From positions 1-64,000 of the IMG/VR virus record IMGVR_UViG_3300048927_000157: a stretch of DNA of 64,000 bases; one strand, written 5' to 3'. This stretch comes from a virus. The translations under genes and the position numbers were made by a program. Of this stretch, positions 4,181 through 53,460 are shown in pieces (the first letter of the stretch is position 1; each line of letters starts with the position of its first letter). The notes under the pieces were generated by a model. It saw nothing but the letters and a program-made list of their open reading frames with translations. It had not been told where the DNA came from and searched no databases.

Positions 4181-4918
4181 ATGTTTTCAACAATAGATTT
4201 CGAGACAACAGGATTAAATCTCACATTAGATGAGATTTGTGAAGTAGCAGTTGTAAATTTTGACAAAGACTTTAACATAGAGAAAGAGTTTAGAACACTT
4301 TGTAGAACCTATAAACCCATACCTGAGGATGTAAGTAAAATTCATGGGATCACAAATGAAATGGTCCAGGATAAACCTTACTTCCATGAGGTTATTCCAA
4401 CGGTATTGCAGCTAATAAAGGGTAAGATCATCTGTGGACAAAACATCAGAAGATTCGATTTACCACTCTTAGCTGAGAAGTGCCTGTTGAGTGATTTCCC
4501 ATTCGATTTCAATGAATACAAAACTCTAGACACTTTGGTGATTGAGTCTGTATTAAAGCCTAGGAATCTCTCATTTCTGTATAAACAATATACTGGAAAA
4601 GACTTAGAGGATGCACACTCGGCACTGGTTGACTGTAAAGCTTCTATGGAGGTTCTAAAAGCACAAATAGAAACTAATAACCTAGATATTCACTCAGATG
4701 ATTTTAATGCAACTTTTGGCATTAAGGATGATGTTGTAGATCCTCTAGGTAAACTAAAATACATAGATGGAGTAGTTTGTTGGTCTATGGGGAAAAATAA
4801 AGATCAGGCAATCAGTAAAGATGTAGCTTATGCTAGATGGGCTCTTACGGCTGACTTCCCTAAATCAACAAAATTCTACATTCAAAAAGAATTAGACAAA
4901 ATAGACAAAGTAAAATAA
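4181..4918 (+). CDS. DnaQ-like DEDDh 3'-5' exonuclease
   Basis: Exo I IDFETTGL, Exo II CGQNIRRFDLPLL, Exo III HSALVDC. Confidence 0.85.
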   Translation: MFSTIDFETTGLNLTLDEICEVAVVNFDKDFNIEKEFRTLCRTYKPIPEDVSKIHGITNEMVQDKPYFHEVIPTVLQLIKGKIICGQNIRRFDLPLLAEKCLLSDFPFDFNEYKTLDTLVIESVLKPRNLSFLYKQYTGKDLEDAHSALVDCKASMEVLKAQIETNNLDIHSDDFNATFGIKDDVVDPLGKLKYIDGVVCWSMGKNKDQAISKDVAYARWALTADFPKSTKFYIQKELDKIDKVK

Positions 4919-5891: not shown

Positions 5892-6350
5892 ATGAATTGG
5901 ACTCTTAAAGGAAGGGAAGTCAAACACATAAAAGACTTCCCTGAAGGAGCCATCGGATTTATTTACATGCTTCACTTCTCAAACGGGAAGAAATACATTG
6001 GAAGAAAATCTTTATACTCTTATACTAAAAGAAATTTTGGTAAGAAAGAGTTGGCTCTTATTACAGACAAAAGGTTGAAAACTTATGAAATTGTCAAAAA
6101 AGAAGTTAAGTGGCAAAGTTATACTGGTTCCTCTGGAAGAGAAGCTAAAGGAGCAATGGATGACGGTGCTCACCTGGTTAAAAAAGAAATACTAAAAATA
6201 TGCTTTACCAAGAAGCAGATTACATATTATGAGACACAATGTTTGTTTGCATATGGTACTCTTGAAGGTGATGACTACTACAATGACAATATCTTAGGTA
6301 AATTTTATAGAAGAGACTTAGATTATGATAAAGAGATTTTATTGGAATGA
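5892..6350 (+). CDS. GIY-YIG-like nuclease domain protein
   Basis: GFIYMLHFSNGKKYIGRKS (GIY...YIG spacing), with downstream E and N residues. Confidence 0.5.
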   Translation: MNWTLKGREVKHIKDFPEGAIGFIYMLHFSNGKKYIGRKSLYSYTKRNFGKKELALITDKRLKTYEIVKKEVKWQSYTGSSGREAKGAMDDGAHLVKKEILKICFTKKQITYYETQCLFAYGTLEGDDYYNDNILGKFYRRDLDYDKEILLE

Positions 6351-8814: not shown

Positions 8815-8889
8815 GGGTCTAAGGTGTAATTAAGGTCTGCACGATAGTCTGAAAAACTGTAGGACTGGGTTCGATTCCCAGTGGACCCA
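8815..8889 (+). tRNA. tRNA-Phe(GAA)
   Basis: GGGTCTA/TGGACCC, loop CTGAAAA, T arm CTGGG-TTCGATT-CCCAG. CCA is encoded. Confidence 0.85.
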
Positions 8890-10982: not shown

Positions 10983-11495
10983 ATGAAAAAAGTAGATTTT
11001 CGTAAATGCTTGGTACTTGATTCACAGTATTTACCTAGACAAATTGTGACATCTGAAAGAGCTTATGTAGTTTCTCTTAAAGGTAATGCAGATATTCTAC
11101 ATGAACACCCTGAGAGATTCGGGTTAGTAAACCCAGAATTGGAGATCTTCAGACCGTCCGTAATAAGAGTTCCGAGATTCATCAATCTGGATATCCACAA
11201 GGTTCCTTGTAACAGGGACAATGTTTTCAAAAGAGATAATTACACATGTGTGTACTGTGGAGAGGATGATGCAAGAGCAATGACTATTGACCACGTAATC
11301 CCTAAATCTAAAGGTGGAAAGGATACTTGGGACAACTTAGTAACTGCTTGTAAACCTTGTAACTCAGACAAAAATGACTTAACAATAGAAGAGTGGGGTA
11401 AGGAGAATCCAAATCCTAGAAGACCACACTACTTGATGTTTATCAAACATCTAGGTGCTATTCCAAAAGATTGGGAGCAGTACTTACTAAAATAA
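10983..11495 (+). CDS. HNH endonuclease
   Basis: CVYCGEDDARAMTIDHVIPKSKGGKDTWDNLVTACKPCNSDKN. Confidence 0.9.
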   Translation: MKKVDFRKCLVLDSQYLPRQIVTSERAYVVSLKGNADILHEHPERFGLVNPELEIFRPSVIRVPRFINLDIHKVPCNRDNVFKRDNYTCVYCGEDDARAMTIDHVIPKSKGGKDTWDNLVTACKPCNSDKNDLTIEEWGKENPNPRRPHYLMFIKHLGAIPKDWEQYLLK

Positions 11496-14777: not shown

Positions 14778-15200
14778 ATGGAATCAAAAATCAGAGAAGA
14801 CTATGTAAAAGCTTTAAAAGCAAAAGATGCAGTAACAAAGAGCACACTATCACTTTTAATTAGTGCAGTGGATAATGAAAAGATTGCTCTTAGAAGAGAT
14901 TTAACAGTAGATGAAGTTACCAAACTTATCTCAAGGGAAATAAAGAAAAGGAATCAATCTATTGAAGCCTACACCCTTTCCAAGAGAATTGATCTTGCTG
15001 TTAAGGAAGAATCAGAATTAAAAGTTCTTGAGTCTTACCTACCTCAGGCTTTAACTTATCCTGAATTAATCTCTTTGGTTAGACTAACTAAAGCAACTAA
15101 CCCAGGAATCCATGAAGGTAAACTATTTGGTTTAATCAACAAGGAATGTAAAGGTGTTACAAAAGCAGAGGAAATTAAAAAAGCAATAGCTGAAGCTTAA
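14778..15200 (+). CDS. GatB/YqeY-domain protein
   Basis: IREDYVKALKAKD...TLSLLISAV...EVTKLISREIKKRNQSIEAY...ELKVLESYLPQ follows the YqeY family pattern. Confidence 0.8.
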   Translation: MESKIREDYVKALKAKDAVTKSTLSLLISAVDNEKIALRRDLTVDEVTKLISREIKKRNQSIEAYTLSKRIDLAVKEESELKVLESYLPQALTYPELISLVRLTKATNPGIHEGKLFGLINKECKGVTKAEEIKKAIAEA

Positions 15201-15592
15201 TGAAAGTTATTATTGCAGGAGGAAGAGAGTTCAATAATTATGGACTTGTTAAAACCAAGTGTGATTACTTTCTAAAGAATCATGGTGACATCGAAATAGT
15301 TTCAGGCAGATGTTCTACGGGAATAAAAACATTCACAACATCAGACGGTATTAACGTATTTGGTGCAGATGGTCTCGGAGAATTATATGCTGCCGAAAAC
15401 AATTATAAAGTTCTACCCTATCCAGCCGATTGGAAAATGCATGGTAAAGCAGCAGGACCGATCAGAAATGAGCAAATGGCTCAGGAAGCTCATGTGCTTA
15501 TAGCTTTCTGGGACGGGATTAGCAAAGGAACAAAAGGAATGATAGATTATATGAAAAGTATGGGTAAACCAGTACGAGTAGTGTACTACTGA
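15200..15592 (+). CDS. SLOG-family (DUF2493-like) protein
   Basis: MKVIIAGGR...VSGRCSTG..GADGLGELYA...PADWKMHGKAAGPIRNEQM...LIAFWDGISKGTKGMI. Confidence 0.65.
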   Translation: MKVIIAGGREFNNYGLVKTKCDYFLKNHGDIEIVSGRCSTGIKTFTTSDGINVFGADGLGELYAAENNYKVLPYPADWKMHGKAAGPIRNEQMAQEAHVLIAFWDGISKGTKGMIDYMKSMGKPVRVVYY

Positions 15593-15891: not shown

Positions 15892-15925
15892 TTTGCATAT
15901 TAAGAAAAGTTTTTATATCTTTGCA
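15892..15925 (+). promoter_or_regulatory. phage consensus promoter with upstream TTTAACAAAATTTTAAC element
   Basis: TTTGCATATTAAGAAAAGTTTTTATATCTTTGCA. The upstream element lies at 15866-15883. Confidence 0.7.
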
Positions 15926-15962
15926 AAGTAATAATTAATCAATAACCAAAAATCATAATAAG

Positions 15963-17639
15963 ATGTTCGACAGCAAACAAAAAAGTTTATTTGAAGTTAC
16001 TTCAAAAAACAAACCAGCAACATCTGCATTCGTTAATGCAGCTTTAAAGAAAGGAGCAGAAACACTATCGGGTAACGGAGCCCTAAAATATTCCTCAACA
16101 GGATCAGCATTAGTTGACCAGTTCGGAGTTATGGGTAAGTTCAAAGCACCAAGATCTTTCCAGGATATCAGTAGAGATGCTGAATTACTTTGGGCAGACG
16201 ATAAGTGGGATGCAGTAGCATTCTCTGTCTTCGTGAGAATGATCTCAAGACAGACTATGTATCAGGATGGTACAATGACTTCTGTTTCACAAAAAGGAGG
16301 AGAGCTTAGACATGAAGGTATCATGAGATTCTTATGGTTACACTTCAAGGATGAGAAAACTTTCTGGACTAACGTAGGTCTAATGATCTCAGCAGGATCA
16401 TGGAAAGATATCTTCACGATGCTTTCTTATGACTTAGTACACCACGGGTGGAATGGAAGAAAGTTAAACTGGAAAAAGTTTGGAGAACTTATCCTTTCAG
16501 GATTAGAAAATTCAAACACTAGTGACTTAATTAAAAAGTATCTTCCACAGATCAAAGCTAAATCTTCTTGCAAAACTGTTGAGGCTCAGGCTGATACAAT
16601 CATTGCTAAATGGATTTGCTCATTAGTATTCGGTACAAAAGAAAATGCAGGATCTACTTACAAACAGTACAGAAAATTAAAAACTTCTGGTACTGCTCAT
16701 GAATGGCAGAAGTTAATTTCTACAAAGCAATTTGATAGAATTGATTTCAACAAAGTTCATGGTAGAGCTCTTTCTAAACTTGTACAAGGTAAGTTCTTGT
16801 TCAACCAAAAACTTTCTGACAAGTATGCAGAGTGGATCAAGGCTCCAGAAACTAAAGAAGTTAAATACACAGGTTTCGTTCACGAGTTGTTCGAAGGTCT
16901 AGGTAAGAGAGCTAGAAGAAAAGTTACTTCTCAAGAGGAAGAAACTATTAACAAGCAATTTGCTACTCTTGTTAAAAAAGGTGGAGAGACTGGTCAAACT
17001 AGTCTAATTGTAGTAAGAGATACATCAGGATCTATGAGCTCACCAGCTACTGGAACTACGATGAGCTGCTACGATATTGCTAAGGCACTTGCCCTTTACT
17101 TCTCTGAATTCTTAACAGGTAGATTTGCAGATGCATGGATCGAGTTCAACTCAGATGCTCAGATGCATACTTGGAAAGGTCAGACTCCAGTAGACAAGTG
17201 GAAAAACGATCACTCAAGTTACGTTGGTGGTACTAACTTCCAATCAGTAATTAACCTTTTCGTTAATCTGAAGCAAAAAGGAATTTCAGAAGAAGATTTC
17301 CCAACAGGAATCTTATGTATCTCTGATAGTGAATTCAACCCAACTTCGTTAGGTAAAACTAACGTTGAAACTGCAAAGGAAACTTTGAGAAGAGCTGGGT
17401 TCTCTAAAGAGTATGTGGATAACTTTGTGATTGTTCTTTGGAACCTACAGTCAGGATACTACGGTAGAGGGACTGGAGAGAAGTTTGAAACTTATGGAGA
17501 CGTTAAAAACGTATTCTATTTCAGTGGATACTCTGCTACCACTGTAGGATTCTTGACTAACACCAAGATCAAAACAGCAGAAGAATTAGTAAGAGAGGCA
17601 TTGTCTCAGGAGCTGATTCAAAGAGTAGAAGTTCTATAA
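15963..17639 (+). CDS. DUF2828-like protein: helical N-terminal domain plus C-terminal vWA/MIDAS domain (Ro60-like architecture)
   Basis: N-terminal ...LSGNGALKYSSTGSALVDQFG... (remembered DUF2828 signature). A vWA MIDAS motif VVRDTSGSMSS sits near residue 350. 558 aa. Confidence 0.7.
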   Translation: MFDSKQKSLFEVTSKNKPATSAFVNAALKKGAETLSGNGALKYSSTGSALVDQFGVMGKFKAPRSFQDISRDAELLWADDKWDAVAFSVFVRMISRQTMYQDGTMTSVSQKGGELRHEGIMRFLWLHFKDEKTFWTNVGLMISAGSWKDIFTMLSYDLVHHGWNGRKLNWKKFGELILSGLENSNTSDLIKKYLPQIKAKSSCKTVEAQADTIIAKWICSLVFGTKENAGSTYKQYRKLKTSGTAHEWQKLISTKQFDRIDFNKVHGRALSKLVQGKFLFNQKLSDKYAEWIKAPETKEVKYTGFVHELFEGLGKRARRKVTSQEEETINKQFATLVKKGGETGQTSLIVVRDTSGSMSSPATGTTMSCYDIAKALALYFSEFLTGRFADAWIEFNSDAQMHTWKGQTPVDKWKNDHSSYVGGTNFQSVINLFVNLKQKGISEEDFPTGILCISDSEFNPTSLGKTNVETAKETLRRAGFSKEYVDNFVIVLWNLQSGYYGRGTGEKFETYGDVKNVFYFSGYSATTVGFLTNTKIKTAEELVREALSQELIQRVEVL

Positions 17640-17676
17640 GGTGAAAATCCTTTAACATAAAATTAACACTGCAAAA

Positions 17677-17710
17677 TTTGCATATCTCAAAAAGATTTTG
17701 TATCTTTGCA
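17677..17710 (+). promoter_or_regulatory. phage consensus promoter driving the tRNA-like array
   Basis: TTTGCATATCTCAAAAAGATTTTGTATCTTTGCA, with upstream TTTAACATAAAATTAAC. No ORF follows for about 1.06 kb. Confidence 0.7.
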
Positions 17711-17935
17711 GTGTTATTAATGAGGTTACTATCAGCAAATACACAACAAAAACATATAATTGATTCAAAAATAAGTAACGTAGAATGCAAAAGCACAGCC
17801 ATCTCTACACTTCGAGTCCTGTATGTGAGAAGTAAAATTGTATAGGAAGGTCTTGAGATGACTTTAAAAGCAAGCAGAGGATTAAAACCCTTGGTAACCT
17901 GTCTATAAAAACTCATACAGCAACTATAAAGCAAC

Positions 17936-18032
17936 GGTATCATAAACCCCAGTCAGAGGTTCGAATCCTCTCCTCCCAACAAAGTTAAATCTTAAAAAAT
18001 ACATCGGGAGGTAGTGAAGTGGTTATCACGGG
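17936..18032 (+). ncRNA. circularly permuted tRNA gene, initiator-like tRNA-Met(CAT): 3' half, 25-nt linker, 5' half
   Basis: 17936-17979 GGT-ATCATAA-ACCCC-AGTC-AGAGG-TTCGAAT-CCTCT-CCTCCCA-A; 18005-18032 CGGGAGG-TA-GTGA-AGTGGTTA-TCAC-G-GG. Joined, they give a 72-nt cloverleaf with a C1xA72 mismatch and anticodon stem GGGGT/ACCCC. Confidence 0.65.
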
Positions 18033-18085
18033 TAAAAGCAAAAAGTGAGTTTTGATAAAGTTTCATACAGCAAACACACAGTTAA

Positions 18086-18179
18086 GCATTGAAAGCCGTT
18101 GGTCGGGGGTTCGAGTCCTTCCTCCCAAACAAAGTTAAATCTAGAAATCTTTGGGAGTAGCTCAGTTGGTAGAGCAACG
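18086..18179 (+). ncRNA. circularly permuted tRNA gene, anticodon TGA with short variable arm: 3' half, 21-nt linker, 5' half
   Basis: 18086-18129 GC-ATTGAAA-GCCGT-TGGTC-GGGGG-TTCGAGT-CCTTC-CTCCCAA-A; 18151-18179 TTGGGAG-TA-GCTC-AGTTGGTA-GAGC-A-ACG. Joined, every stem is fully paired (73 nt; G-U pairs in the T stem). Confidence 0.65.
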
Positions 18180-18497
18180 TTAAAACAAAAAATGAAACTT
18201 GAATAAGAACAGTAACAGCAAATTTTATCACAGAAACTACCATCTTAAGTTTTATGGTGTAACAGGTAGCACACTGGGAATAAGAATCCCAGAGGTTTTG
18301 GTTCGAATCCATCTTAGATAATCTGTTCTGACAAGATTGCTAACAGCAAATTAAACAAACACTTGAATTTTAATCAAACCTAGTTTAGTATGCAATCTGA
18401 AAAAATTACCTACAGCAAACTAAAACAAAATCAAAATAGGAAATTTGAAAAACAAAAGGTAATTTGATAAAGCTACACACAGCAAATAAACGTTTAT

Positions 18498-18599
18498 AAA
18501 TTTTTATTTGGATTAAAAACGATTTGGGTTCGAATCCCGAAGCCCTTGACCGAGGCACTTGGATGTGGAATATCGGTGTCAACAAGACCTGTAGCTTGT
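18498..18599 (+). ncRNA. degenerate permuted tRNA-like module (anticodon arm, T arm, closed helix, D-like hairpin)
   Basis: TTTTA-TTTGGAT-TAAAA (TGG loop), TTGGG-TTCGAAT-CCCGA, helix TTGACCGA/TCGG(TG)TCAA capped by a 19-nt loop, then CAAG-ACCTGTAG-CTTG. The geometry is imperfect. Confidence 0.3.
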
Positions 18600-18603
18600 A
18601 TTT

Positions 18604-18675
18604 GGTCCGTTCGTCTATCGGTGAGGACATTAGATTTTCGATCTAAGAAGATGGGTTCGATTCCCATACGGACTA
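18604..18675 (+). tRNA. tRNA-Glu(TTC)
   Basis: GGTCCGT/ACGGACT, TTAGA-TTTTCGA-TCTAA, ATGGG-TTCGATT-CCCAT. Confidence 0.9.
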
Positions 18676-18680
18676 CAATT

Positions 18681-18754
18681 GGTTCTTTAGCTCAACTAGG
18701 TAGAGCAGCAGTCTCTAAAACTGTGTGTTATGGGTTCGAATCCCATAAGAATCA
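18681..18754 (+). tRNA. amber suppressor tRNA, anticodon CTA
   Basis: GGTTCTT/AAGAATC, GCTC-AACTAGGTA-GAGC, GCAGT-CTCTAAA-ACTGT, GTGTT, ATGGG-TTCGAAT-CCCAT. The 7-nt loop has U33, CTA and A37. Confidence 0.85.
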
Positions 18755-18774
18755 CAACCAAAATTTTATACATT

Positions 18775-19134
18775 ATGAAAAAAGGAGACGAATTAGTAGG
18801 TTAGGTTGGAAATGAATTCCTAACTATTATTACAAGAGAAGACCTGAAACCAGGTTACAAATGTGTGCAAAGTGCACATGCATTGGCTGATTTTGCAGTC
18901 AAGTTTGAAGATGAATTTAAGCAGTGGCAGTTGGGTAGTAATTACCTGTGTTGCCTGGAAGCTTCGGAATCCAAAATTGAAAGGATACTCCACAGATTAG
19001 ATGACTTAAAAATTAAGTACCATAAATTCTTGGAACCTGATATCGGAAACCAAATGACAGCAGTAGCTGTTGAAGCAATCTCCAGAGAACAACATAAAAA
19101 ACTTTTTAAGAATTTACAACTAACATTAAATTAA
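18775..19134 (+). CDS. PTH2-like (peptidyl-tRNA hydrolase 2 family) protein with an in-frame TAG at codon 10
   Basis: ATG 18775, then MKKGDELVG-TAG(18802)-VGNEFLTIITREDLKPGYKCVQSAHA... The LTIITREDL..G.K.VQSAHA block matches the PTH2 N-terminus and lies upstream of the GTG (18865) used in the track. There is no in-frame start between 18805 and 18864. Confidence 0.5.
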
Positions 19135-20269: not shown

Positions 20270-20342
20270 GCCCTCATAGCTCAACTGCATAGAGCAACTC
20301 CCTTCTAAGGTGTCGATACAGGTTGGAATCCTGTTGGGGGCT
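20270..20342 (+). tRNA. tRNA-Arg(TCT)
   Basis: GCCCTCA/TGGGGGC, GCTC-AACTGCATA-GAGC, loop CTTCTAA, ACAGG-TTGGAAT-CCTGT. Confidence 0.85.
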
Positions 20343-20355
20343 CAAAATTAAAATT

Positions 20356-20865
20356 ATGAATAATTGTTTGCACTGTGGTACAGAGACTACAAATCCAAAA
20401 TATTGTTGTAGGTCATGTTCTGCTAAGCATACAAATGTTAAATTTCCTAAAAAGAAATTAACTAGGACTTGTAGTAAGTGTAGCTCAGTTGTAAAATCTT
20501 ATAAACATAGTTTATGTGAATTCCATCATGAAGAATTAAAACAAACAAAGTATGAGGTTACAAAAAATTTAACTCTACAAGATTACTGGAATAAAAAATC
20601 ATTAGATGGTTTACATACTTCTTCAAAAAATGCACATATAAGACAGTTAGGTCGAACTAAATTTAAAGACCTTTTGAGAAAGCCTTGTGCTAATTGTGGG
20701 TATTCTAAACATGTGGAGTTATGTCATATTAAACCAATAAGGGATTTTAAACCAACTGATAAAGTAGACCTAGTCAATGCAAGAGATAATGTGATACAAC
20801 TTTGTCCAAACTGTCACTGGGAATTTGATAATGGATATTTAAAATTGTTAAGGCAATTATTATAA
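20356..20865 (+). CDS. HNH homing-type endonuclease
   Basis: N-terminal Cys clusters. C-terminal CANCGYSKHVELCHIKP...NVIQLCPNCHWEFDNG. Sits between two tRNA genes. The track start at 20323 is inside tRNA-Arg. Confidence 0.75.
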   Translation: MNNCLHCGTETTNPKYCCRSCSAKHTNVKFPKKKLTRTCSKCSSVVKSYKHSLCEFHHEELKQTKYEVTKNLTLQDYWNKKSLDGLHTSSKNAHIRQLGRTKFKDLLRKPCANCGYSKHVELCHIKPIRDFKPTDKVDLVNARDNVIQLCPNCHWEFDNGYLKLLRQLL

Positions 20866-39916: not shown

Positions 39917-40460
39917 GACTGGTAATGTTTATGGTAAACTAACAGTAGTATCAAGAGCTGACAATGACAAAAATGGATTTGGAAAATGGATATGTAAATG
40001 TGATTGTGGAAATAAGTCTATAGTAGCAGGGATTAATCTGAGAAAAGAAAAAGGAACAAGGTCTTGTGGGTGCTTAAAAAATGAAATAATGTTTACTAAA
40101 AGGAGTGGGAATGCAGTTTTTGGAATCATCCTAAGAAACATTAAAAGTGATTGTAAAAAGAGAAATCTACCTTTTAACATAACCTTAGAGGATGTAAAAG
40201 AGATTACTGTTCAACCTTGTAGTTATTGTAAGAGAGAACCTTATGAATTAAAATGTAGGTATCAAAGACCAGATTCCACTGTAGAGAATGACTGTTTACT
40301 TTTGAATGGTATAGATAGAATCATACCATCAAAAGGTTATACTAAAGGAAATATTACTCCCTGTTGTAAGTACTGTAACAGAGCTAAAAGTGATTTGACT
40401 TTAGATGAATTTAAAAATTTAATCAAATTAATTTATAAAAACTATATTAATGAGACTTAG
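39891..40460 (+). CDS. HNH-type homing endonuclease-like protein
   Basis: CKCDCGN...CGC Cys cluster. C-terminal NGIDRIIPSKGYTKGNITPCCKYCNRAKSD. Confidence 0.6.
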   Translation: MKQRKLIDETGNVYGKLTVVSRADNDKNGFGKWICKCDCGNKSIVAGINLRKEKGTRSCGCLKNEIMFTKRSGNAVFGIILRNIKSDCKKRNLPFNITLEDVKEITVQPCSYCKREPYELKCRYQRPDSTVENDCLLLNGIDRIIPSKGYTKGNITPCCKYCNRAKSDLTLDEFKNLIKLIYKNYINET

Positions 40461-41736
40461 TGTTAGTGAAGATTCACTTAATTACCCTTGTTCAGTTGTA
40501 ACAATTGGACAAGTTTTCGATATAAAAAATGCCGATAACATCAAAAGAGTAGTTCTGTATGGAAACAACGTAATTGTCTCTAAAGACGTTAAACAGGGAG
40601 ACACAATGCTTTACTTTGTAGCAGGTACACAATTGTCAGAGGATCTTTGCTTCAATAACAACCTTTATGATGAGGTCCAGCTTAACAAAGATGTGACAGA
40701 TAAGAAAGGTTACATTTCTGCCAAAAGAAGACTTGTAAAAACTCTTAAACTAAAAGAAACTCTTTCTGATGGAATGTTACTTCCTATTGAAGCTCTAAAC
40801 TACTTAGAGGAGGGTAAACTTGATGCTAAAGGATTCTTGAAAATTGGGGATACATTCACTCACATTGGAGACACTATGATTTGTCAGAAATATGTTCCAC
40901 CAGTTAAGCAATCTGGACTACCAAAAGGTGAGAAGCAGCCTAAAGAAAATAGATTGAAAGATCTACTATTGGATAATCAATTCAGATTCCACTCAGACAC
41001 AGCTCATTTTGCCAGAAATCTGGATAAGTTTGGAGCAGGAACTCAAATTGTTGTGACTAGGAAGTATCATGGGTCTTCATTGATCCTAAGTCATGTGTTA
41101 GTGAAGAAAGAGCTTAACTGGTTTGAGAAATTGATTGACAAGTATATTACTCCACTTCCTAAAACTCAATGGGGGTACATTCACTCATCTGGTAAACCTA
41201 AATCAAGACTGCCTAAAGGGGTGGAAGCTGAGCAGGTTGGATGGACTTCTCACACTCCTAGTTTCTACTCTGCCAATATTTGGAAGAGAGCAATGGAAAT
41301 GCATAAACACAACCTTGAGAAAGGAATCACTATTTATGGTGAAATTGTGGGTCAGGGAGTTCAGGGTGAGGGTTTCACTTATGGTTTCGAGTATGAGATC
41401 TTTGTGTATAGAATCACTTATACCAACCCAGATGGACAGGTTTACGAGTTCTCATGGGAGGCAGTGAAGAGGTACTGTGATAAGTATGGAATCAAGTATG
41501 TTGAAGAGTACTTCTCAGGTAAAGTACATGAAATAGTAGGAAAACAAGGAACTACAGAAGATCTGTTGGAGAGATTAAAGGATGCTTATCTTGATAAATC
41601 CTACCCAGACTGTAAGGTTGATGAGGGAATCTGTATCAGAGTAGCTGAGACGGATGAGATCTTCAAACTAAAATCTCCTAAGTTTATTGATGGGGAATCT
41701 AAGGAATTAGAGCAAGGAATCTCCGATGGAGAATAA
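40450..41736 (+). CDS. RNA ligase (Rnl-family nucleotidyltransferase)
   Basis: Motif I TRKYHGSS (K-x-H-G, as in Rnl2 KIHGTN), motif IV-like DEGICIRV, motif V FKLKSPKF. Confidence 0.7.
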   Translation: MRLSVSEDSLNYPCSVVTIGQVFDIKNADNIKRVVLYGNNVIVSKDVKQGDTMLYFVAGTQLSEDLCFNNNLYDEVQLNKDVTDKKGYISAKRRLVKTLKLKETLSDGMLLPIEALNYLEEGKLDAKGFLKIGDTFTHIGDTMICQKYVPPVKQSGLPKGEKQPKENRLKDLLLDNQFRFHSDTAHFARNLDKFGAGTQIVVTRKYHGSSLILSHVLVKKELNWFEKLIDKYITPLPKTQWGYIHSSGKPKSRLPKGVEAEQVGWTSHTPSFYSANIWKRAMEMHKHNLEKGITIYGEIVGQGVQGEGFTYGFEYEIFVYRITYTNPDGQVYEFSWEAVKRYCDKYGIKYVEEYFSGKVHEIVGKQGTTEDLLERLKDAYLDKSYPDCKVDEGICIRVAETDEIFKLKSPKFIDGESKELEQGISDGE

Positions 41737-45189: not shown

Positions 45190-45585
45190 ATGTTAACACA
45201 CATTTTTTACCTTATAGGAGGGTTCTTAATTATTATGGAACTCAGTGATCTTTTCAACGTCAAAGCAGTAGTCAAAAAGACTGAGGAGTTGGAGAAGTGG
45301 GATATGGATAATCCTGATGTAGATTATGAAAACAAACCTAAGTTCTACATAGATTTCATCCAGTCAAGAACGGTATTCACTTGGACATTCTTACTGTGGG
45401 CTATTTTAGGCTTATTTACGAAGTATTATATGGATTTCATATTCTTCTTCGTCATGACTCTTTTGGTTTATCCTAAGGTCTCTAGTGCACTACATGGAAG
45501 ACCATTCAGATTAATATTCAGTGCTGTGAATTCACTTTTTGTCATTGGATTCATAATGTACGAAATCATAAAACATTATCATTAA
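45190..45585 (+). CDS. integral membrane protein
   Basis: Four predicted hydrophobic segments. Confidence 0.6.
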   Translation: MLTHIFYLIGGFLIIMELSDLFNVKAVVKKTEELEKWDMDNPDVDYENKPKFYIDFIQSRTVFTWTFLLWAILGLFTKYYMDFIFFFVMTLLVYPKVSSALHGRPFRLIFSAVNSLFVIGFIMYEIIKHYH

Positions 45586-46364
45586 TGAAAAATTACAAAT
45601 TATATAAAGTAGGAGGGTGTATCAGAGATGCACTATTGGGAGTCAGAAGTAAGGACATTGATTTTACTTTTGAATTTTCACAAGAGTTTGTGGATTCAAT
45701 CCATAGAAAATCTGATGTTACGGCTGAGTGGTTTTACCATTCAATGAACAACATTCTAAAACAAGATGGATTCGATATCAAGCTTGAAGTTCCAGAAGCC
45801 TTTACTACAAGAGCTTTATTTCCAAAGGATCACAAGTATGCTGGACTAGGAGCAGACTTCGTTCTGGCTAGAAAAGAGACTTACCCTGATCCTGAAACAA
45901 GAATGCCAAAGGTAGAAATTGGCACACTGTTTGATGATCTACAGAGAAGGGATTTTACAGTAAATGCTATTGCTGAAGATGAAGATGGTATTTTGATTGA
46001 CCCATTTGGAGGTCAGGCAGATTTGAAGCAAGGCATTTTGAGATGTCCCATTTCAGCCCAAACCTCTTTCAATGATGATCCTCTAAGAATGTTGAGAGCT
46101 CTTAGATTCTCTATCACAAAGAACTTTACAATGGATTCATCTATTGAGAGAGTGATTCTTAAAGATCAGGAGATGTGGATGAAGTTTTTAAATGTAGTTT
46201 CTGAAGAAAGAATTAGAGATGAAGTTTATAAGATGTTCAAGCATGACACGATAAAGACACTTAGATTACTAAGTGATCTGGAAAAATTGACAGATATTTC
46301 TGTATTAAAATACATATTCGGTGAAAACATGTGGTTGGAGCCGACAACTAAAAAAAGAAAGTAA
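45585..46364 (+). CDS. tRNA nucleotidyltransferase (CCA-adding enzyme / poly(A) polymerase family), short form
   Basis: YKVGGCIRDALLG...KDIDF, RRDFTVNAIA, DPLRMLRALRF. Confidence 0.85.
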   Translation: MKNYKLYKVGGCIRDALLGVRSKDIDFTFEFSQEFVDSIHRKSDVTAEWFYHSMNNILKQDGFDIKLEVPEAFTTRALFPKDHKYAGLGADFVLARKETYPDPETRMPKVEIGTLFDDLQRRDFTVNAIAEDEDGILIDPFGGQADLKQGILRCPISAQTSFNDDPLRMLRALRFSITKNFTMDSSIERVILKDQEMWMKFLNVVSEERIRDEVYKMFKHDTIKTLRLLSDLEKLTDISVLKYIFGENMWLEPTTKKRK

Positions 46365-49292: not shown

Positions 49293-49782
49293 CACAACAG
49301 ATTTCTTATGTCCTACTTACACAAAGGACTTCACAGTAATTAGAACTGAAATTGGAGATTCCTTGTTAAAAAGTTTAATTAGGCAACATGATGTCATCAT
49401 AATGATGGGTCACGGGGATACCAGAGGACTATATGGATTTGATAGACACATTGTAGATGCTTCCTTTGTTGATGAGTTAAGAAAGAAGATCTGTATTTGT
49501 ATCTGGTGCTATGCTGCTGACTTTGTTGAACATTATGATCTTAAATCTCCATTTTCAACTGGAATGTTTATTTCAGAATCAGAAGAAGCCGATGCTTTAG
49601 GAGAAGAGTATGATGAGGGAGACATAGAAGAGTCAAACTTTTGGTTTACAGAAGCTTTGAAAGGTTTTTTCTCAGACTTAGAAAAATACGATTACAAGAA
49701 ACTAAACCGATGCTACAACGTAGGATTAAACAGTATCACAGAATATAACAGAAAACAATTTATACAAACATGGCACACTTAA
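49261..49782 (+). CDS. hypothetical protein with His-Gly ... Cys pattern
   Basis: VIIMMGHGDTRGLY ... ICICIWCYAADF. Very tentatively caspase-fold-like. Confidence 0.55.
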   Translation: MKVLVIHPQDSTTDFLCPTYTKDFTVIRTEIGDSLLKSLIRQHDVIIMMGHGDTRGLYGFDRHIVDASFVDELRKKICICIWCYAADFVEHYDLKSPFSTGMFISESEEADALGEEYDEGDIEESNFWFTEALKGFFSDLEKYDYKKLNRCYNVGLNSITEYNRKQFIQTWHT

Positions 49783-50912
49783 AAGCACAGGATTTCGAGA
49801 CAGAGAAGGAAAACTTCAGAAAGATGATTCCTTGGATTGAAGAGTCAAGAAACGTTAAAATCCTTCTGGCATTCGTAAGAGGAAGCCATATGTATGGAAC
49901 CAACACGGAGCAGTCAGATGTAGACATTACTTTTGTTTATCAGCAGCCAACCAATGAGATCCTGAAAAACAATTACAAGAAAGATATGAGTATTGGGGGA
50001 GATGATGTAGTTGGGTTTGAGATCCAGAATTTCATGGAACTTCTGGTTAAGAACAACCCAAACATGATTGAGGCTCTTGATATTCCAGATGAGTGTATAA
50101 TCTACAAAAACCCAGTAATGCATGTATTTGATGATTCCAAGCCTTGGATCACAACACTTACTGAAAAAACCATTTTGGGTTATGCAGACTCTCAGATCAA
50201 GAAAGCAACAGGACTTAATAAGAAGATGAATAATCCTCAGCCAAAAGAGAGAAAATCAATTTTGGATTTCTGTTATGTTATCTCAGGTCATAATTCAATT
50301 CCACTCCTAAGATGGGCAGACCAGTTGAATATCAATTTGGATACTTGTGGATTAGTGGATCTTCCAGTAGGAAAAGGACTTCATGGTCTTTATGTAGACA
50401 ATGAAAATAAGTATCAGCTTAGAGGTCTGATTAAAGATGAGGATTCAGTTAACCTGAGACTTTCTTCTATCCCTAAAGAGCTGGCAACAAATTTTGAAGC
50501 TGTCACCATGTATTACAACTTAGATGGTTTCCAAGTTCATTGTAAGGATCATAAAGAGTACTGGGAATGGGAAGCTAAAAGAAATGAAGAAAGATTCAAT
50601 GCTAACCAAAAGGCAGGGCAAGGAGTTGATCTTAAAAATATGTCTCACCTATTCAGACTTCTTGATATGGCTGATAACATTTCCACAGGAAAAGGTCTTA
50701 AAGTGAAATCAGATAACGTGGAGTTCTTGAGAGCTATTAGAGCAGGAGAGTACAACTATGAAGATCTGATGAAACAGGCTGAGGAAAGGTTTCATACCAT
50801 CAAAGGAAATTACATCACAGTTGATCTTCCAGAAGAAGTGGATATCAGCAGGATGAAAGATCTTCTATTACAGTTTAGATTAAATACAGTAAACAGTGGA
50901 ACAAAGTTTTAA
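49770..50912 (+). CDS. RlaP-like nucleotidyltransferase (Pol-beta superfamily, RNA-repair associated)
   Basis: LLAFVRGSHMYGTNTEQSDVDITFVY fits the GS..YG......SD.D motif of the ligase-associated nucleotidyltransferase family. Confidence 0.6.
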   Translation: MAHLKAQDFETEKENFRKMIPWIEESRNVKILLAFVRGSHMYGTNTEQSDVDITFVYQQPTNEILKNNYKKDMSIGGDDVVGFEIQNFMELLVKNNPNMIEALDIPDECIIYKNPVMHVFDDSKPWITTLTEKTILGYADSQIKKATGLNKKMNNPQPKERKSILDFCYVISGHNSIPLLRWADQLNINLDTCGLVDLPVGKGLHGLYVDNENKYQLRGLIKDEDSVNLRLSSIPKELATNFEAVTMYYNLDGFQVHCKDHKEYWEWEAKRNEERFNANQKAGQGVDLKNMSHLFRLLDMADNISTGKGLKVKSDNVEFLRAIRAGEYNYEDLMKQAEERFHTIKGNYITVDLPEEVDISRMKDLLLQFRLNTVNSGTKF

Positions 50913-52533: not shown

Positions 52534-53460
52534 ATGAGTTTAATCACCGTTTTAATCGGTATATCTGGAGCAGGAAAAACAACATTTTCAACTCCTTTAC
52601 TAAAAGATAAAAATACTATCAGAGTAAACAGGGATGATGCCAGAACCATGTTATTTGGAGTAAGTCAATCAGATCAGACTTATTACAACAGAAAAGACAT
52701 TAGAGCATGTGAGGATCTGGTTTCAGAAACCATTGAAGACACAGTTTATAATGCCTTGAATAAAGGAAAAAACATTGTTTTCGATAACACTCATCTTCAA
52801 AAGAAGTATATTGATGAGATTTTATTCAAGTATAATCACTTGGCTGACATTGAGTTAGTATTTTGTGATGTTCCTTTGAAGGAAGCTCAAGATAGAGTTG
52901 TTAAAAGAAACTCATTGGCTTCAGTCCCTGTATACATTGAGAAACACTACAATGACTACATCAAGCTTAAAAAAGCAATGCATGGTCAGCAGTTATTCTA
53001 CCCTCAAACAGCTCCCCAAGTTAAATTCAATTCTTCTCTTCCAGACACTTACATAGTGGATATTGATGGAACGGTTGCTTTGAAAGGAGATAGAGATATC
53101 TTTGATGACTCTAAGCTTCACTTGGATACTGAAATTAAAGAGGTTGGGCACATTATTAGAGCACTCCATAAAGATGGTTTCAAGATAGTGTTTGTATCGG
53201 GAAGACAAGATTCCTGCAAAGATACTACCACTCAATGGTTAAAGGATAAAAACCTCTGGATGACAGATTCTGAAATCTTCATGAGGAAAGCCAAAGACCA
53301 AAGAAATGACAGTATTGTCAAAGAAGAAATAGTATTAAGAGACTTGCTACCAAGATTCAACGTTGTTGGAGTATTGGATGACAGAATAGGGGTGACTAGA
53401 AACTTCCACAAGTTGGGAATGTTCGTCCTGAATGTAAATCAAGGTTTCGTAAAATTTTAA
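52534..53460 (+). CDS. polynucleotide 5'-kinase / 3'-phosphatase (Pnkp, T4 Pnk-like)
   Basis: N-terminal P-loop LIGISGAGKTTF. C-terminal HAD phosphatase motifs IVDIDGTVA, VSGR and LDDR. Confidence 0.85.
   Translation: MSLITVLIGISGAGKTTFSTPLLKDKNTIRVNRDDARTMLFGVSQSDQTYYNRKDIRACEDLVSETIEDTVYNALNKGKNIVFDNTHLQKKYIDEILFKYNHLADIELVFCDVPLKEAQDRVVKRNSLASVPVYIEKHYNDYIKLKKAMHGQQLFYPQTAPQVKFNSSLPDTYIVDIDGTVALKGDRDIFDDSKLHLDTEIKEVGHIIRALHKDGFKIVFVSGRQDSCKDTTTQWLKDKNLWMTDSEIFMRKAKDQRNDSIVKEEIVLRDLLPRFNVVGVLDDRIGVTRNFHKLGMFVLNVNQGFVKF

What the first reader, a model, noticed from the sequence alone, without database searches (positions are those of the whole stretch)
17716..18603. Promoter-driven, ORF-free tandem array with conserved processing-site-like motifs around each tRNA-like module
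A consensus promoter (17677-17710) is followed by about 0.9 kb without a credible ORF. This stretch holds seven copies of (A/T)CAGCAA, at 17732, 17917, 18067, 18215, 18343, 18412 and 18479. In six of the seven, an anticodon-arm-like hairpin (roughly 4-5-bp stem, 7-9-nt loop) begins at or within a few nt of 12 nt downstream of the motif. For the two intact permuted units, the structurally defined first nucleotide of the 3' half is at exactly +13 (17936 and 18086).

Each 5' half is followed by T(T)AAAA(G)CAA. Both linkers begin CAAAGTTAAATCT. Spacers share TTTGATAAAGnTnCAnACAGCAA. The unit length of about 148-150 nt equals 44 + linker + 28/29 + 53. Later units (18215-18599) are shortened or degenerate, being hairpin-only or irregular.

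Fixed distances between conserved motifs and structural boundaries look like recognition sites for an endonuclease or ribozyme that would free the termini later joined in the anticodon stem.
Basis: seen in the sequence. Interest (0 to 1): 0.85.

Follow-up and report, generated by a model that had tools for sequence, protein, structure and literature searches.

The report
Phage Y-RNA-like array with tRNA mimics
This phage non-coding operon encodes seven small RNAs that share one conserved "handle", two of them carrying a rearranged tRNA look-alike. They are most likely the so far unidentified RNA partners of the Ro60-like protein encoded next door, a pairing that recurs in many phages including Felix O1.

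Summary
All seven CAGCAA motifs, both circularly permuted tRNA cloverleaves, the shared linkers and the 148-150-nt period sit at the stated coordinates.

Each of seven tandem units (17723-18597) is closed by its own 7-9-bp basal helix. CAGCAA lies just inside the 5' strand and an A-rich run just inside the 3' strand. Units are joined by 4-7-nt GAUA-like linkers.

This handle also encloses payloads that are not tRNA-like. It also overlaps the start codon of the upstream 558-aa gene, whose predicted fold matches Ro60 (HEAT ring plus vWA).

In a scan seeded only by a DNA pattern, 31 of 39 arrays lay beside a homologue of that gene, all on the same strand. None of 75 chance-like hits did. The same units occur unannotated in Leptolyngbya phage Lbo-JY46 and between Felix O1 tRNA genes.

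Best reading: an undescribed Y-RNA-like family partnered with a Ro60-like protein, with YrlA-like tRNA mimics as payloads.

The handle also occurs as an intron-like insert in normal-order tRNAs, and the phage encodes PNKP and an RNA ligase.

The parts
15892..15923 (+). Bacteroidota-type promoter (TTTG-N19-TAnnTTTG) of the Ro60-like gene
   Evidence: one of 15 such sites on the + strand against 0.6 expected. Nearly identical to the array promoter.
15961..16025 (+). Handle unit overlapping the start codon of the Ro60-like gene (AGAUGUU-cga-CAGCAA ... AACAUCU); candidate autoregulatory operator
   Evidence: A model built only from other phages' units scores it 35.9 bits, E=9e-6, the second-best hit in the whole window. 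The same arrangement occurs in L001, L002, L005, L007, L031, L079, L099 and L107.
15963..17639 (+). Ro60-like protein (558 aa; Pfam DUF7788, homologues also DUF2828; phrog_850 'RNA-binding protein'; vWA MIDAS motif DTSGS)
   Evidence: AlphaFold2 model pLDDT 79. The top 7 Foldseek PDB hits are all Ro60, aligned full length, E 5e-6 to 1e-4.
17677..17708 (+). Bacteroidota-type promoter of the array
   Evidence: No sigma-70-type site here.
17723..17900 (+). Unit 1: handle (basal helix AGGUUACUA/UGGUAACCU) with a 178-nt unit whose payload holds a T-loop-like element
   Evidence: Orthologues in L001 (86%) and L002 (76%).
17908..18053 (+). Unit 2: handle plus permuted tRNA-like payload. 3' half 17936-17979, closing loop 17980-18004, 5' half 18005-18032. 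Loop AUCAUAA (CAU), C1.A72 mismatch, break at position 28/29.
18058..18200 (+). Unit 3: handle plus permuted tRNA-like payload. 3' half 18086-18129, closing loop 18130-18150, 5' half 18151-18179. Loop AUUGAAA (UGA), break at position 29/30.
   Evidence: Rfam YrlA partial hit, 36.2 bits, E=5.7e-6, tRNA-like core only. Also.
18206..18329 (+). Unit 4: handle plus normal-order tRNA-like payload (D arm, arm with a 9-nt loop, T arm) with poor acceptor pairing. Contains the ARAGORN call 'tRNA-Leu(aag)' at 18248-18321.
   Evidence: (32.8 bits). No orthologue in L001 or L002.
18334..18398 (+). Unit 5: handle plus short hairpin payload
   Evidence: Model R1 E=1e-4. L001 orthologue 95% identical.
18403..18465 (+). 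Unit 6: handle plus short hairpin payload
   Evidence: Model R1 49.6 bits, E=6e-9.
18470..18597 (+). Unit 7: handle plus T arm plus an ACCGAGG...GGAAUAUCGGU element. This unit type is conserved in L001, L002, L003, L022, L033, L052 and L077.
18604..18755 (+). tRNA-Glu(UUC) and amber-suppressor tRNA(CUA), directly downstream of the array. The scan found no terminator-like site between the last unit and these tRNAs, so they are probably co-transcribed.

Best explanation
The region is a non-coding operon of seven tandem Y-RNA-like small RNAs.

Unit anatomy: each unit is closed by its own 7-9-bp basal helix. The 5' strand begins A-G and the 3' strand ends C-U. On the 5' side the helix is followed by N0-2-A-CAGCAA-A and about 12 A/C/U-rich nucleotides. 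On the 3' side it is preceded by an A-rich run, (U)AAAACAAAAA. Units are joined by 4-7-nt GAUA-like linkers.

Proposed partner: this handle is proposed to be the binding site of the Ro60-like ring/vWA protein encoded immediately upstream. That protein also appears to control its own translation through a copy of the handle that sequesters its start codon.

Payloads: the variable interior gives each RNA its specificity. In units 2 and 3 it is a complete tRNA mimic in permuted order: anticodon hairpin, T arm, loop-closed acceptor stem, D arm. This is a more complete version of the tRNA-like domain of bacterial YrlA Y RNAs. The handle leaves the tRNA body from the anticodon stem.

Likely role: by analogy with Ro60-Y RNA particles, the RNAs would tether or gate the Ro-like ring with respect to tRNA-recognising enzymes or nucleases. 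The context is a phage carrying about 24 tRNA genes and a tRNA-repair kit. They may also act as decoys against host defences.

Shown here: the architecture, the covariation, strand-specific RNA-level pairing, co-occurrence with the protein, and the protein's Ro60-like fold.

Inferred: protein binding, autoregulation, processing at the linkers, and the biological role.
For: - Basal helices are real. Complementarity between the 12 nt upstream of each CAGCAA and the region before the next unit reaches at least 7 bp in 75 of 121 cases, against about 20 with shuffled partners.
- They covary. All 9 pairs show changes on both sides; covariation score 0.796 against 0.209 for shuffles and at most 0.146 for slid registers (with a selection caveat).
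- Pairing is at RNA level on the + strand. Among 127 array stems chosen without favouring G.U, the single internal mismatches are 11 G.U and 0 A.C.
- Unconstrained folding closes all seven units by their basal helix.
- RNAalifold on 10 permuted units recovers the basal helix, T arm, closed acceptor stem and D arm; 20 of 23 pairs have compensatory changes.
- Rfam YrlA gives consistent sub-threshold hits on the tRNA-like core in the window and five other loci.
- The neighbouring protein has a Ro60 fold. tblastn hits include mycobacteriophage genes annotated 'Ro-like RNA binding protein'.
- Association holds when sampling starts from DNA alone. Of 39 loci with at least 3 units, 31 hold a homologue, all on the same strand. 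Of 75 loci with 0-1 units, none does.
- It spans homologues down to 24% identity and hosts from Bacteroidota to cyanobacteria (Lbo-JY46) and enterobacteria (Felix O1).
- A model trained only on other phages finds the start-codon unit at E=9e-6.
- The Felixounavirus Bas63 homologue gp130 is reported as Ro60-like, sits upstream of the tRNA genes and counters the ppl defence. Its RNA partners were only guessed at (PMC11482910).
- An RNA-repair kit lies in the window.
Against: - No binding data exist.
- The protein has no Pfam TROVE hit, and the TM-scores to Ro60 are only 0.40-0.46.
- Well-formed 7-nt anticodon-like loops with U33 and a purine at 37, and 7-bp acceptor stems with 22-26-nt closing loops, go beyond what a simple mimic would need.
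- The handle also occurs as an intron-like insert in normal-order tRNAs. One such case, in a 735-kb phage, has no Ro-like gene within the 12 kb examined.
- Eight of the 39 arrays had no homologue in the stretch fetched, though several of those lie at a locus edge or in a very short locus.
Confidence: 0.55

Rival explanations
1. Genuine permuted (and, elsewhere, handle-interrupted) tRNA genes. The handle acts as a protein-recognised splice or permutation junction, analogous to the archaeal and eukaryotic bulge-helix-bulge motif. An endonuclease cuts at the leader/payload and payload/trailer boundaries. Phage PNKP and RNA ligase then seal the nick in the anticodon stem. In the permuted form, RNase P, 3' trimming and the CCA-adding enzyme open the acceptor loop to give a working tRNA.
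For: - De-permuted sequences are canonical cloverleaves with U33 and a purine at 37.
- The break always lies in or at the anticodon stem, positions 26-30.
- CAGCAA-to-junction spacing of 12 nt recurs.
- The same handle sits as a roughly 45-nt hairpin insert at position 28/29 or 29/30 of normal-order tRNA-Arg(TCT)-like and tRNA-Thr(TGT)-like genes. So both topologies of one structure exist.
- The window encodes an RNA ligase, PNKP, a RlaP nucleotidyltransferase and a CCA/poly(A)-polymerase-family enzyme.
- M. smegmatis YrlA is cut by RNase P and receives CCA (PMC4201824).
Against: - The handle also encloses short hairpins and T-arm-only payloads, where ligation would give nothing tRNA-like.
- The anticodon loop is the most variable part among orthologous units, and 9-nt loops and an ATT 'anticodon' occur.
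- The anticodons duplicate normal tRNAs in the same genome: window Met x3 and Ser-TGA; L156 has a normal Thr-TGT.
- Orthologous units differ far more than the 93%-identical neighbouring protein would predict.
- No endonuclease candidate was identified.
Confidence: 0.2
2. The handle is a processing, stability or terminator-like cassette, or the site of some other factor. It punctuates polycistronic small-RNA and tRNA transcripts. The Ro-like gene is merely syntenic with tRNA regions.
For: - Units lie between tRNA genes in Felix O1.
- Terminal units in some arrays end in CUGUUUUU.
- The 735-kb phage case has no Ro-like gene within 12 kb.
Against: - The 31/39 against 0/75 association and the 31/31 same-strand orientation are hard to explain by synteny, given hosts as different as Bacteroidota, cyanobacteria and enterobacteria.
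- A host factor is unlikely to recognise the same motif in all three.
- A copy lies over the Ro-like gene's own start codon.
Confidence: 0.12
3. The conserved flanks form a small self-cleaving ribozyme that releases each unit.
For: Conserved single-stranded motifs next to a helix, at fixed spacing.
Against: No Rfam ribozyme family matches, even at E up to 10. The conserved core is only CAGCAA plus an A-rich run, with no conserved tertiary-pairing candidates.
Confidence: 0.05
4. Decaying remnants of tandem tRNA genes, or DNA-level repeats or per-unit promoters, with no RNA function.
For: The region lies in a tRNA-rich stretch with HNH endonuclease genes. Array content turns over between relatives.
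Against: - Compensatory covariation in the basal, acceptor, T and D helices.
- The G.U against A.C asymmetry.
- Conservation of the handle across very distant phages.
- The motif lies inside the transcribed helix-bounded unit, not upstream of it.
Confidence: 0.04

Closest known systems
Bacterial YrlA Y RNAs with Rsr (Ro60) (Chen et al. 2014, PMC4201824; Rfam RF02553)
   Same: Small RNAs encoded beside a Ro60-type gene on the same strand. The 5' and 3' ends pair into a stem next to an internal loop. The interior is a tRNA-like domain in the order T arm, loop-closed acceptor stem, D arm. More than one Y RNA per locus. Genomic link to RNA-repair enzymes.
   Different: Scores only 32-39.5 bits against a gathering score of 69, and only the tRNA-like core aligns. 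There is no GNCGAAN0-1G motif; a CAGCAA/A-rich handle takes its place. Arrays hold up to nine units. Many units have no tRNA-like part. Several keep a full anticodon-like hairpin. The partner protein is DUF2828/DUF7788 and is not detected as TROVE by Pfam.
Thermus phage phiLo Ro60 with Yrl1/Yrl2 (PMC12135203)
   Same: A phage-encoded Ro60-type protein with phage-encoded Y-like RNAs next to its gene, forming higher-order particles.
   Different: There the protein is a recognisable Ro60 and the RNAs carry the CGAA motif. There are two RNAs rather than an array, and no permuted tRNA cloverleaf was reported.
Felixounavirus Bas63 gp130 (PhageMaP preprint, PMC11482910)
   Same: It holds the same genomic position, directly upstream of the tRNA genes, as the Felix O1 homologue. 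Described as Ro60-like by structure. Counters the ppl defence system.
   Different: The preprint only guessed that some annotated tRNAs might be its Y RNAs. The CAGCAA units between the Felix O1 tRNA genes were not described. That gp130 is the orthologue of FelixO1p079 is my inference from synteny and genus.
Circularly permuted tRNA genes of Cyanidioschyzon merolae and other algae, and archaeal split, permuted or non-canonical-intron tRNAs (own knowledge: Soma et al. 2007; Chan et al. 2011)
   Same: The 3' half lies upstream of the 5' half, and rejoining gives a canonical cloverleaf. The same junction element occurs both in permuted genes and as an intron in normal-order genes.
   Different: Those use a bulge-helix-bulge motif and the splicing endonuclease, which are absent from bacteria. 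Their products are essential, conserved decoders. Here the anticodons are redundant and unstable, and the junction element also surrounds non-tRNA payloads.

Membership tests
YrlA (Rfam RF02553) | Reaches the family's gathering score (69 bits) | tested here: not met
   36.2 bits for window 18097-18180. 32.4-39.5 bits in L001, L003, L019, L021 and L033. The Felix O1 unit is not detected at E<=0.1.
YrlA (Rfam RF02553) | tRNA-like domain in the order T arm, loop-closed acceptor-like stem, D arm | tested here: met
   cmscan alignments. De novo RNAalifold consensus with compensatory changes.
YrlA (Rfam RF02553) | Conserved GNCGAAN0-1G motif and Ro-binding stem (PMC4201824) | tested here: not met
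   No G-N-CGAA in 17716-18603; every CGAA there falls within a TTCGA stretch (three are T-loops of tRNA-like payloads). The model's terminal stems align with many non-canonical pairs.
Y RNAs in general (Ro60 partners) | Encoded near a Ro60-type gene (within about 4 kb) on the same strand | tested here: met
   The array starts 84 nt after the gene's stop. 31 of 39 pattern-found arrays have a homologue nearby, 31 of 31 on the same strand.
Y RNAs in general (Ro60 partners) | The 5' and 3' ends form a stem adjoining a large internal loop | tested here: met
Y RNAs in general (Ro60 partners) | Physically bound by the Ro60-type protein | not testable with these tools
   Needs RIP/CLIP or EMSA.
Ro60 / TROVE proteins | Sequence match to the TROVE domain | tested here: not met
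   Pfam gives only DUF7788, with DUF2828 in homologues. A PDB sequence search gives nothing.
Ro60 / TROVE proteins | HEAT-repeat ring plus C-terminal vWA domain with a MIDAS motif | tested here: met
   The top 7 Foldseek hits are Ro60 over about 590 columns, E 5e-6 to 1e-4, TM 0.40-0.46. An invariant D353-x-S355-x-S357 motif (RDTSGSM) is present.
Circularly permuted tRNA genes | 3' half upstream of 5' half; rejoining gives a canonical cloverleaf | tested here: met
   ARAGORN on the rejoined halves of two window units and of L001, L006 and L019.
Circularly permuted tRNA genes | Anticodon and body conserved among orthologues, filling a decoding need | tested here: not met
   Orthologous units carry CAT, TGA, TCA or 9-nt loops. 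The anticodons duplicate normal tRNA genes.
Circularly permuted tRNA genes | Circular intermediate and a mature, charged tRNA | not testable with these tools
   Needs junction-spanning RT-PCR or RNA-seq and acylation assays.
Known self-cleaving ribozymes (Rfam) | Match to a ribozyme covariance model | tested here: not met
   None at gathering score in the window, nor at E<=10 in 17600-18800.

The most novel reading that the evidence does not exclude
The CAGCAA handle is a protein-dependent tRNA splice or permutation junction, the first in viruses of bacteria. It marks both intron-like inserts in normal-order tRNAs and the termini of circularly permuted tRNA genes. The Ro60-like protein serves as the platform on which an endonuclease, phage PNKP and RNA ligase excise the handle and seal the anticodon stem. 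This would be a bacterial-virus analogue of bulge-helix-bulge splicing and of the permuted tRNA genes of red algae.
Probability: 0.2. Interest if true: 0.95.

Novelty: new variant of a known kind. Interest (0 to 1): 0.8.

Why it matters
A large phage protein family has been annotated only as "RNA-binding", "vWFA" or "hypothetical". The searches found more than 2,000 relatives, in 535 GenBank phage records, including Felix O1-like, Enterococcus, Staphylococcus, Campylobacter and mycobacterial phages.

One member, Bas63 gp130, was recently reported to counter a bacterial defence system. Its RNA partners are unknown.

The CAGCAA-handle units give concrete, testable candidates for those partners. 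They also supply a simple sequence rule for finding them, and culturable systems in which to test binding, processing and function (Felix O1 or Bas63 on E. coli and Salmonella; Lbo-JY46).

The work also shows that tRNA scanners miss or mislabel a class of tRNA-shaped RNAs in phage genomes. Examples are permuted units, handle-interrupted tRNAs, and the "tRNA-Leu(aag)" call inside unit 4.

If the minority reading is right, this would be the first protein-dependent tRNA splicing or permutation system in bacterial viruses.

Tried and rejected
- blastn of the array against GenBank phages returned only ordinary tRNA matches, apart from one lead to a 735-kb phage.
- A PDB sequence search with the protein gave nothing useful.
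- A literature search for DUF2828 returned only irrelevant plant papers.
- Searches for permuted tRNAs in phages, and for Ro-like proteins with tRNAs, found no prior description.
- The sigma-70 promoter scan found no site at the array.
- My first two G.U against A.C counts were flawed. They took the first permissive partner, so they counted spurious stems. They were replaced by the unbiased count.
- Brute-force de-permutation over 126 junction combinations per module was too permissive: ARAGORN found some 'tRNA' for most modules. I use only its closing-loop lengths.
- A check for TAG recoding found little evidence in this window.
- The de-permuted units are no closer than 69% to any of the phage's own tRNAs, so a recent origin from them is rejected.
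- The CAGCAA blocks as per-unit promoters was rejected, because the basal helix that covaries lies upstream of the motif and pairs at RNA level.
Full report
**1. Checking the observation**

The region 17716-18603 lies between a 558-aa ORF (15963-17639, + strand) and tRNA-Glu (18604).

- All seven (A/T)CAGCAA copies are at the stated positions. There are 7 CAGCAA in about 750 nt, against 20 in the remaining 63 kb of the + strand.
- The two permuted units are exact. The segments 17936-17979 plus 18005-18032, and 18086-18129 plus 18151-18179, rejoin into canonical cloverleaves by ARAGORN. Their anticodons are CAT (with a C1.A72 mismatch) and TGA.
- The shared linker start, the TTTGATAAAG blocks, the T(T)AAAA(G)CAA blocks and the 150/148-nt period are all present.
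- The promoter is not a sigma-70 consensus. It is a Bacteroidota-type TTTG-N19-TAnnTTTG site at 17677-17708. There are 15 such sites on the + strand against 0.6 expected, and a near-identical copy lies in front of the upstream ORF at 15892-15923. The consensus itself is from my own knowledge of Bacteroides promoters.

**2.

Printing the sequence between successive motifs in the window and in loci that encode homologues of the upstream ORF showed a common plan:

[helix 5' strand, A-G-N6-7] - N0-2 - A - CAGCAA - about 12 nt - payload - A-rich run - [helix 3' strand, ...C-U] - G-A-U-A-like linker - next unit.

The helix sequence differs in every unit but always pairs with its own partner. The evidence:

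- A test that does not presuppose pairing compared the best complementary run with the true partner and with shuffled partners. It found at least 7 bp in 75 of 121 cases against about 20, and at least 8 bp in 51 against 8.
- On an alignment of 44 short units from other phages, all nine pairs change on both sides. The covariation score is 0.796, against 0.209 for shuffles and at most 0.146 for slid registers. These units had been picked for at least 7 pairs, so percent paired is not informative, but the diversity of pair types is.
- Among 127 array stems chosen while allowing any single mismatch, the internal mismatches are 11 G.U and 0 A.C. That is the signature of pairing in RNA read from the motif strand. 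Two earlier versions of this count were flawed.
- Unconstrained folding closes all seven window units by this helix.

The window units are 17723-17900, 17908-18053, 18058-18200, 18206-18329, 18334-18398, 18403-18465 and 18470-18597. The linkers are GTCTATA, GATA, GAATA, GACA, GAAA and GATA.

**3. Payloads**

- Units 2 and 3 carry the permuted tRNA cloverleaf.
- Unit 4 carries a normal-order tRNA-like body with a 9-nt loop and poor acceptor pairing. ARAGORN and Rfam call it a weak tRNA-Leu(aag), 32.8 bits.
- Units 5 and 6 are short hairpins.
- Unit 7 has a T arm plus a conserved ACCGAGG...GGAAUAUCGGU element that recurs in several distant loci.
- Unit 1 is a 178-nt unit shared with L001 and L002.

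So the later units are distinct, conserved types rather than degenerate copies.

Array content turns over. Unit 4 is unique to the window, unit 5 is missing from L002, and units 2 and 3 are diverged paralogues.

**4. The tRNA-like payload compared with YrlA**

A permissive Rfam scan hit the Y-RNA-like family YrlA on unit 3 (36.2 bits, E=5.7e-6). It hit permuted units in five other loci at 32-39.5 bits. In every case only the tRNA-like core aligns: T arm, loop-closed acceptor stem, D arm. The model's Ro-binding stems do not align. All scores are below the gathering score of 69.

RNAalifold on ten permuted units from eight loci recovered the basal helix, T arm, closed acceptor stem and D arm de novo. 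Twenty of 23 pairs showed compensatory change.

The anticodon-like region is not part of that consensus. Loops read CAT, TGA, TCA, TCT and CTT, or are 9 nt long, and one locus has the whole arm in cis.

The loop that closes the acceptor stem ranges from 3-6 nt (GAAA in L033, AGGU in Felix O1) to more than 70 nt.

**5. The neighbouring protein is Ro60-like**

- Pfam sees only DUF7788, with DUF2828 in homologues. PHROGs calls the family 'RNA-binding protein'.
- An AlphaFold2 model (pLDDT 79) matched Ro60 structures as its top seven Foldseek hits, aligned over the full length, with E from 5e-6 to 1e-4 and TM 0.40-0.46. The next hits cover only the vWA domain.
- An invariant D-x-S-x-S (MIDAS-type) motif is present.
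- tblastn finds relatives in 535 GenBank phages. These include mycobacteriophage genes annotated 'Ro-like RNA binding protein', and FelixO1p079, which sits directly upstream of the Felix O1 tRNA cluster.

**6. The handle and the protein travel together**

I scanned viral contigs with a DNA pattern alone, CTGATAAG-N7-ACAGCAA, which gave 120 loci.

- Thirty-nine loci hold at least three units. Of these, 31 encode a homologue in the stretch fetched, always on the same strand. Several of the other eight have the array at the edge of the fetched stretch or are very short.
- None of the 75 loci with 0-1 units, which are mostly chance matches, encodes one.
- The association extends to homologues of only 24-31% identity.
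- The cultured Leptolyngbya phage Lbo-JY46 has an unannotated five-unit array right after its homologue (PP438436.1 6923-7274).
- Felix O1 has four units between its tRNA genes (NC_005282.1 23872-23938, 24039-24096, 24493-24560, 24580-24704). The last carries a permuted tRNA-like payload.
- A covariance model trained on units from other phages finds the three short Felix O1 units at E from 2.6e-4 to 4e-3. The YrlA model does not see the Felix O1 permuted unit at all.

**7. A handle over the protein's own start codon**

The same model, scanning the whole 64-kb window on both strands without filters, gave these top hits:

| Position | What | E-value |
|---|---|---|
| 18399-18469 | unit 6 | 6e-9 |
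| 15957-16029 | start-codon unit | 9e-6 |
| 18330-18398 | unit 5 | 1e-4 |

In the second hit the helix AGAUGUU/AACAUCU contains the ATG of the Ro60-like ORF, and CAGCAA supplies codons 3-5. The same arrangement is present in at least eight other loci. The protein's first 28 residues are predicted to be disordered.

I read this as a translational operator, which in turn points to the protein as the factor that binds the handle. This step is inference.

**8. Context**

The window also encodes:

- an RNA ligase (40450-41736);
- a RlaP-family nucleotidyltransferase (49770-50912);
- PNKP (52534-53460);
- a CCA/poly(A)-polymerase-family enzyme (45585-46364);
- RNase T (4181-4918);
- YqeY (14778-15200).

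This matches the known link between Ro60/Y RNA and RNA repair (PMC7824862; PMC7790460, listed). A 2024 preprint reports that the Felixounavirus Bas63 protein gp130 is Ro60-like, lies upstream of the tRNA genes and counters the ppl defence. Its authors guessed that some tRNAs are its Y RNAs (PMC11482910). I found no description of the CAGCAA units in Rfam 15 or in the paper library.

**9.

The single blastn lead to a 735-kb phage turned out to be a normal-order tRNA-Arg(TCT)-like gene. The handle sits in it as a hairpin (S'-GCAC-S-uca-CAGCAA-8 nt) inserted between positions 29 and 30 of the anticodon stem.

A clade with distant Ro-like homologues has the same kind of insert, capped by GAUA, at position 28/29 of a tRNA-Thr(TGT)-like gene.

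So one secondary structure exists in two chain topologies. In one, the ends are at the handle and the acceptor stem is capped. In the other, the ends are at the acceptor stem and the handle is capped. That is the relation seen between intron-bearing and permuted tRNA genes in red algae (own knowledge).

Three points argue against a decoding role:

- L156 also has a normal tRNA-Thr(TGT).
- The window already has three Met tRNAs and a Ser-TGA tRNA.
- Most units have no tRNA to mature.

**10. Verdict**

| Reading | Probability |
|---|---|
| Undescribed family of Y-RNA-like RNAs partnered with a Ro60-like phage protein, carrying tRNA mimics among other payloads | about 0.55 |
| Handle directs excision and ligation to make real tRNAs | about 0.2 |
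| Handle is a processing or stability cassette, or the site of another factor | about 0.12 |
| Self-cleaving ribozyme | about 0.05 |
| Decayed remnants, DNA-level repeats or per-unit promoters | about 0.04 |

Novelty: a new variant of a known kind.

Noticed in passing
window 40450-41736, 45585-46364, 49770-50912, 52534-53460, 4181-4918, 14778-15592: A full RNA-repair and tRNA-maintenance gene set: RNA ligase, CCA/poly(A)-polymerase-family enzyme, RlaP nucleotidyltransferase, PNKP, RNase T, YqeY and a YAcAr/SLOG protein.
   Followed up: partly
window 18681-18755: An amber-suppressor tRNA (anticodon CTA) lies directly after the array. In-frame TAG use in this window is minimal, so any recoding would concern genes elsewhere.
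   Followed up: partly
window 18248-18321: The ARAGORN and Rfam call 'tRNA-Leu(aag)' (32.8 bits, 9-nt loop, poor acceptor pairing) lies inside handle unit 4. It is probably a tRNA-like payload, not a decoding tRNA.
   Followed up: partly
window 8815-8889: A tRNA found by Rfam (54.5 bits) but missed by ARAGORN. Its anticodon loop reads GAA (Phe).
   Followed up: no
window 3792-55988, + strand: Fifteen Bacteroidota-type promoter motifs, many with the extended consensus TTTGCATATGTCAAAA...TAnnTTTG, against 0.6 expected. This points to a Bacteroidota host and host-polymerase transcription of this region.
   Followed up: partly
L159 about 6072-6189 (LR756501.1, 735-kb uncultured phage): A normal-order tRNA-Arg(TCT)-like gene with a roughly 44-nt CAGCAA-handle hairpin inserted between positions 29 and 30. 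ARAGORN does not detect it, and no Ro-like gene lies within the 12 kb examined.
   Followed up: partly
L156 7424-7541 and 8190-8300 (also L044, L048, L057, L066, L128, L144, L146): Handle-interrupted tRNA-like genes (a Thr-TGT type and a second type), lying 200-1000 nt upstream of distant Ro-like homologues and close to short handle units. A normal tRNA-Thr(TGT) is also present in L156.
   Followed up: partly
L019 499-694, L027 190-739, L033 6191-6547 and 6540-6755: Phage-encoded tmRNAs (one of them permuted) and a group I intron lie close to the arrays in related loci.
   Followed up: no
L028 7018-7257 and 8447-9243; L019 3641-3707; L031 3502-3551: Stand-alone or terminal units often use an AGAUGU... 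helix and end in CUGUUUUU. This suggests the basal helix doubles as an intrinsic-terminator stem or gives a U-rich 3' end.
   Followed up: no
window 10983-11495 and 20323-20865; L158 6517-7882: HNH endonuclease genes are interspersed in the tRNA and small-RNA regions of both this phage and Felix O1.
   Followed up: no
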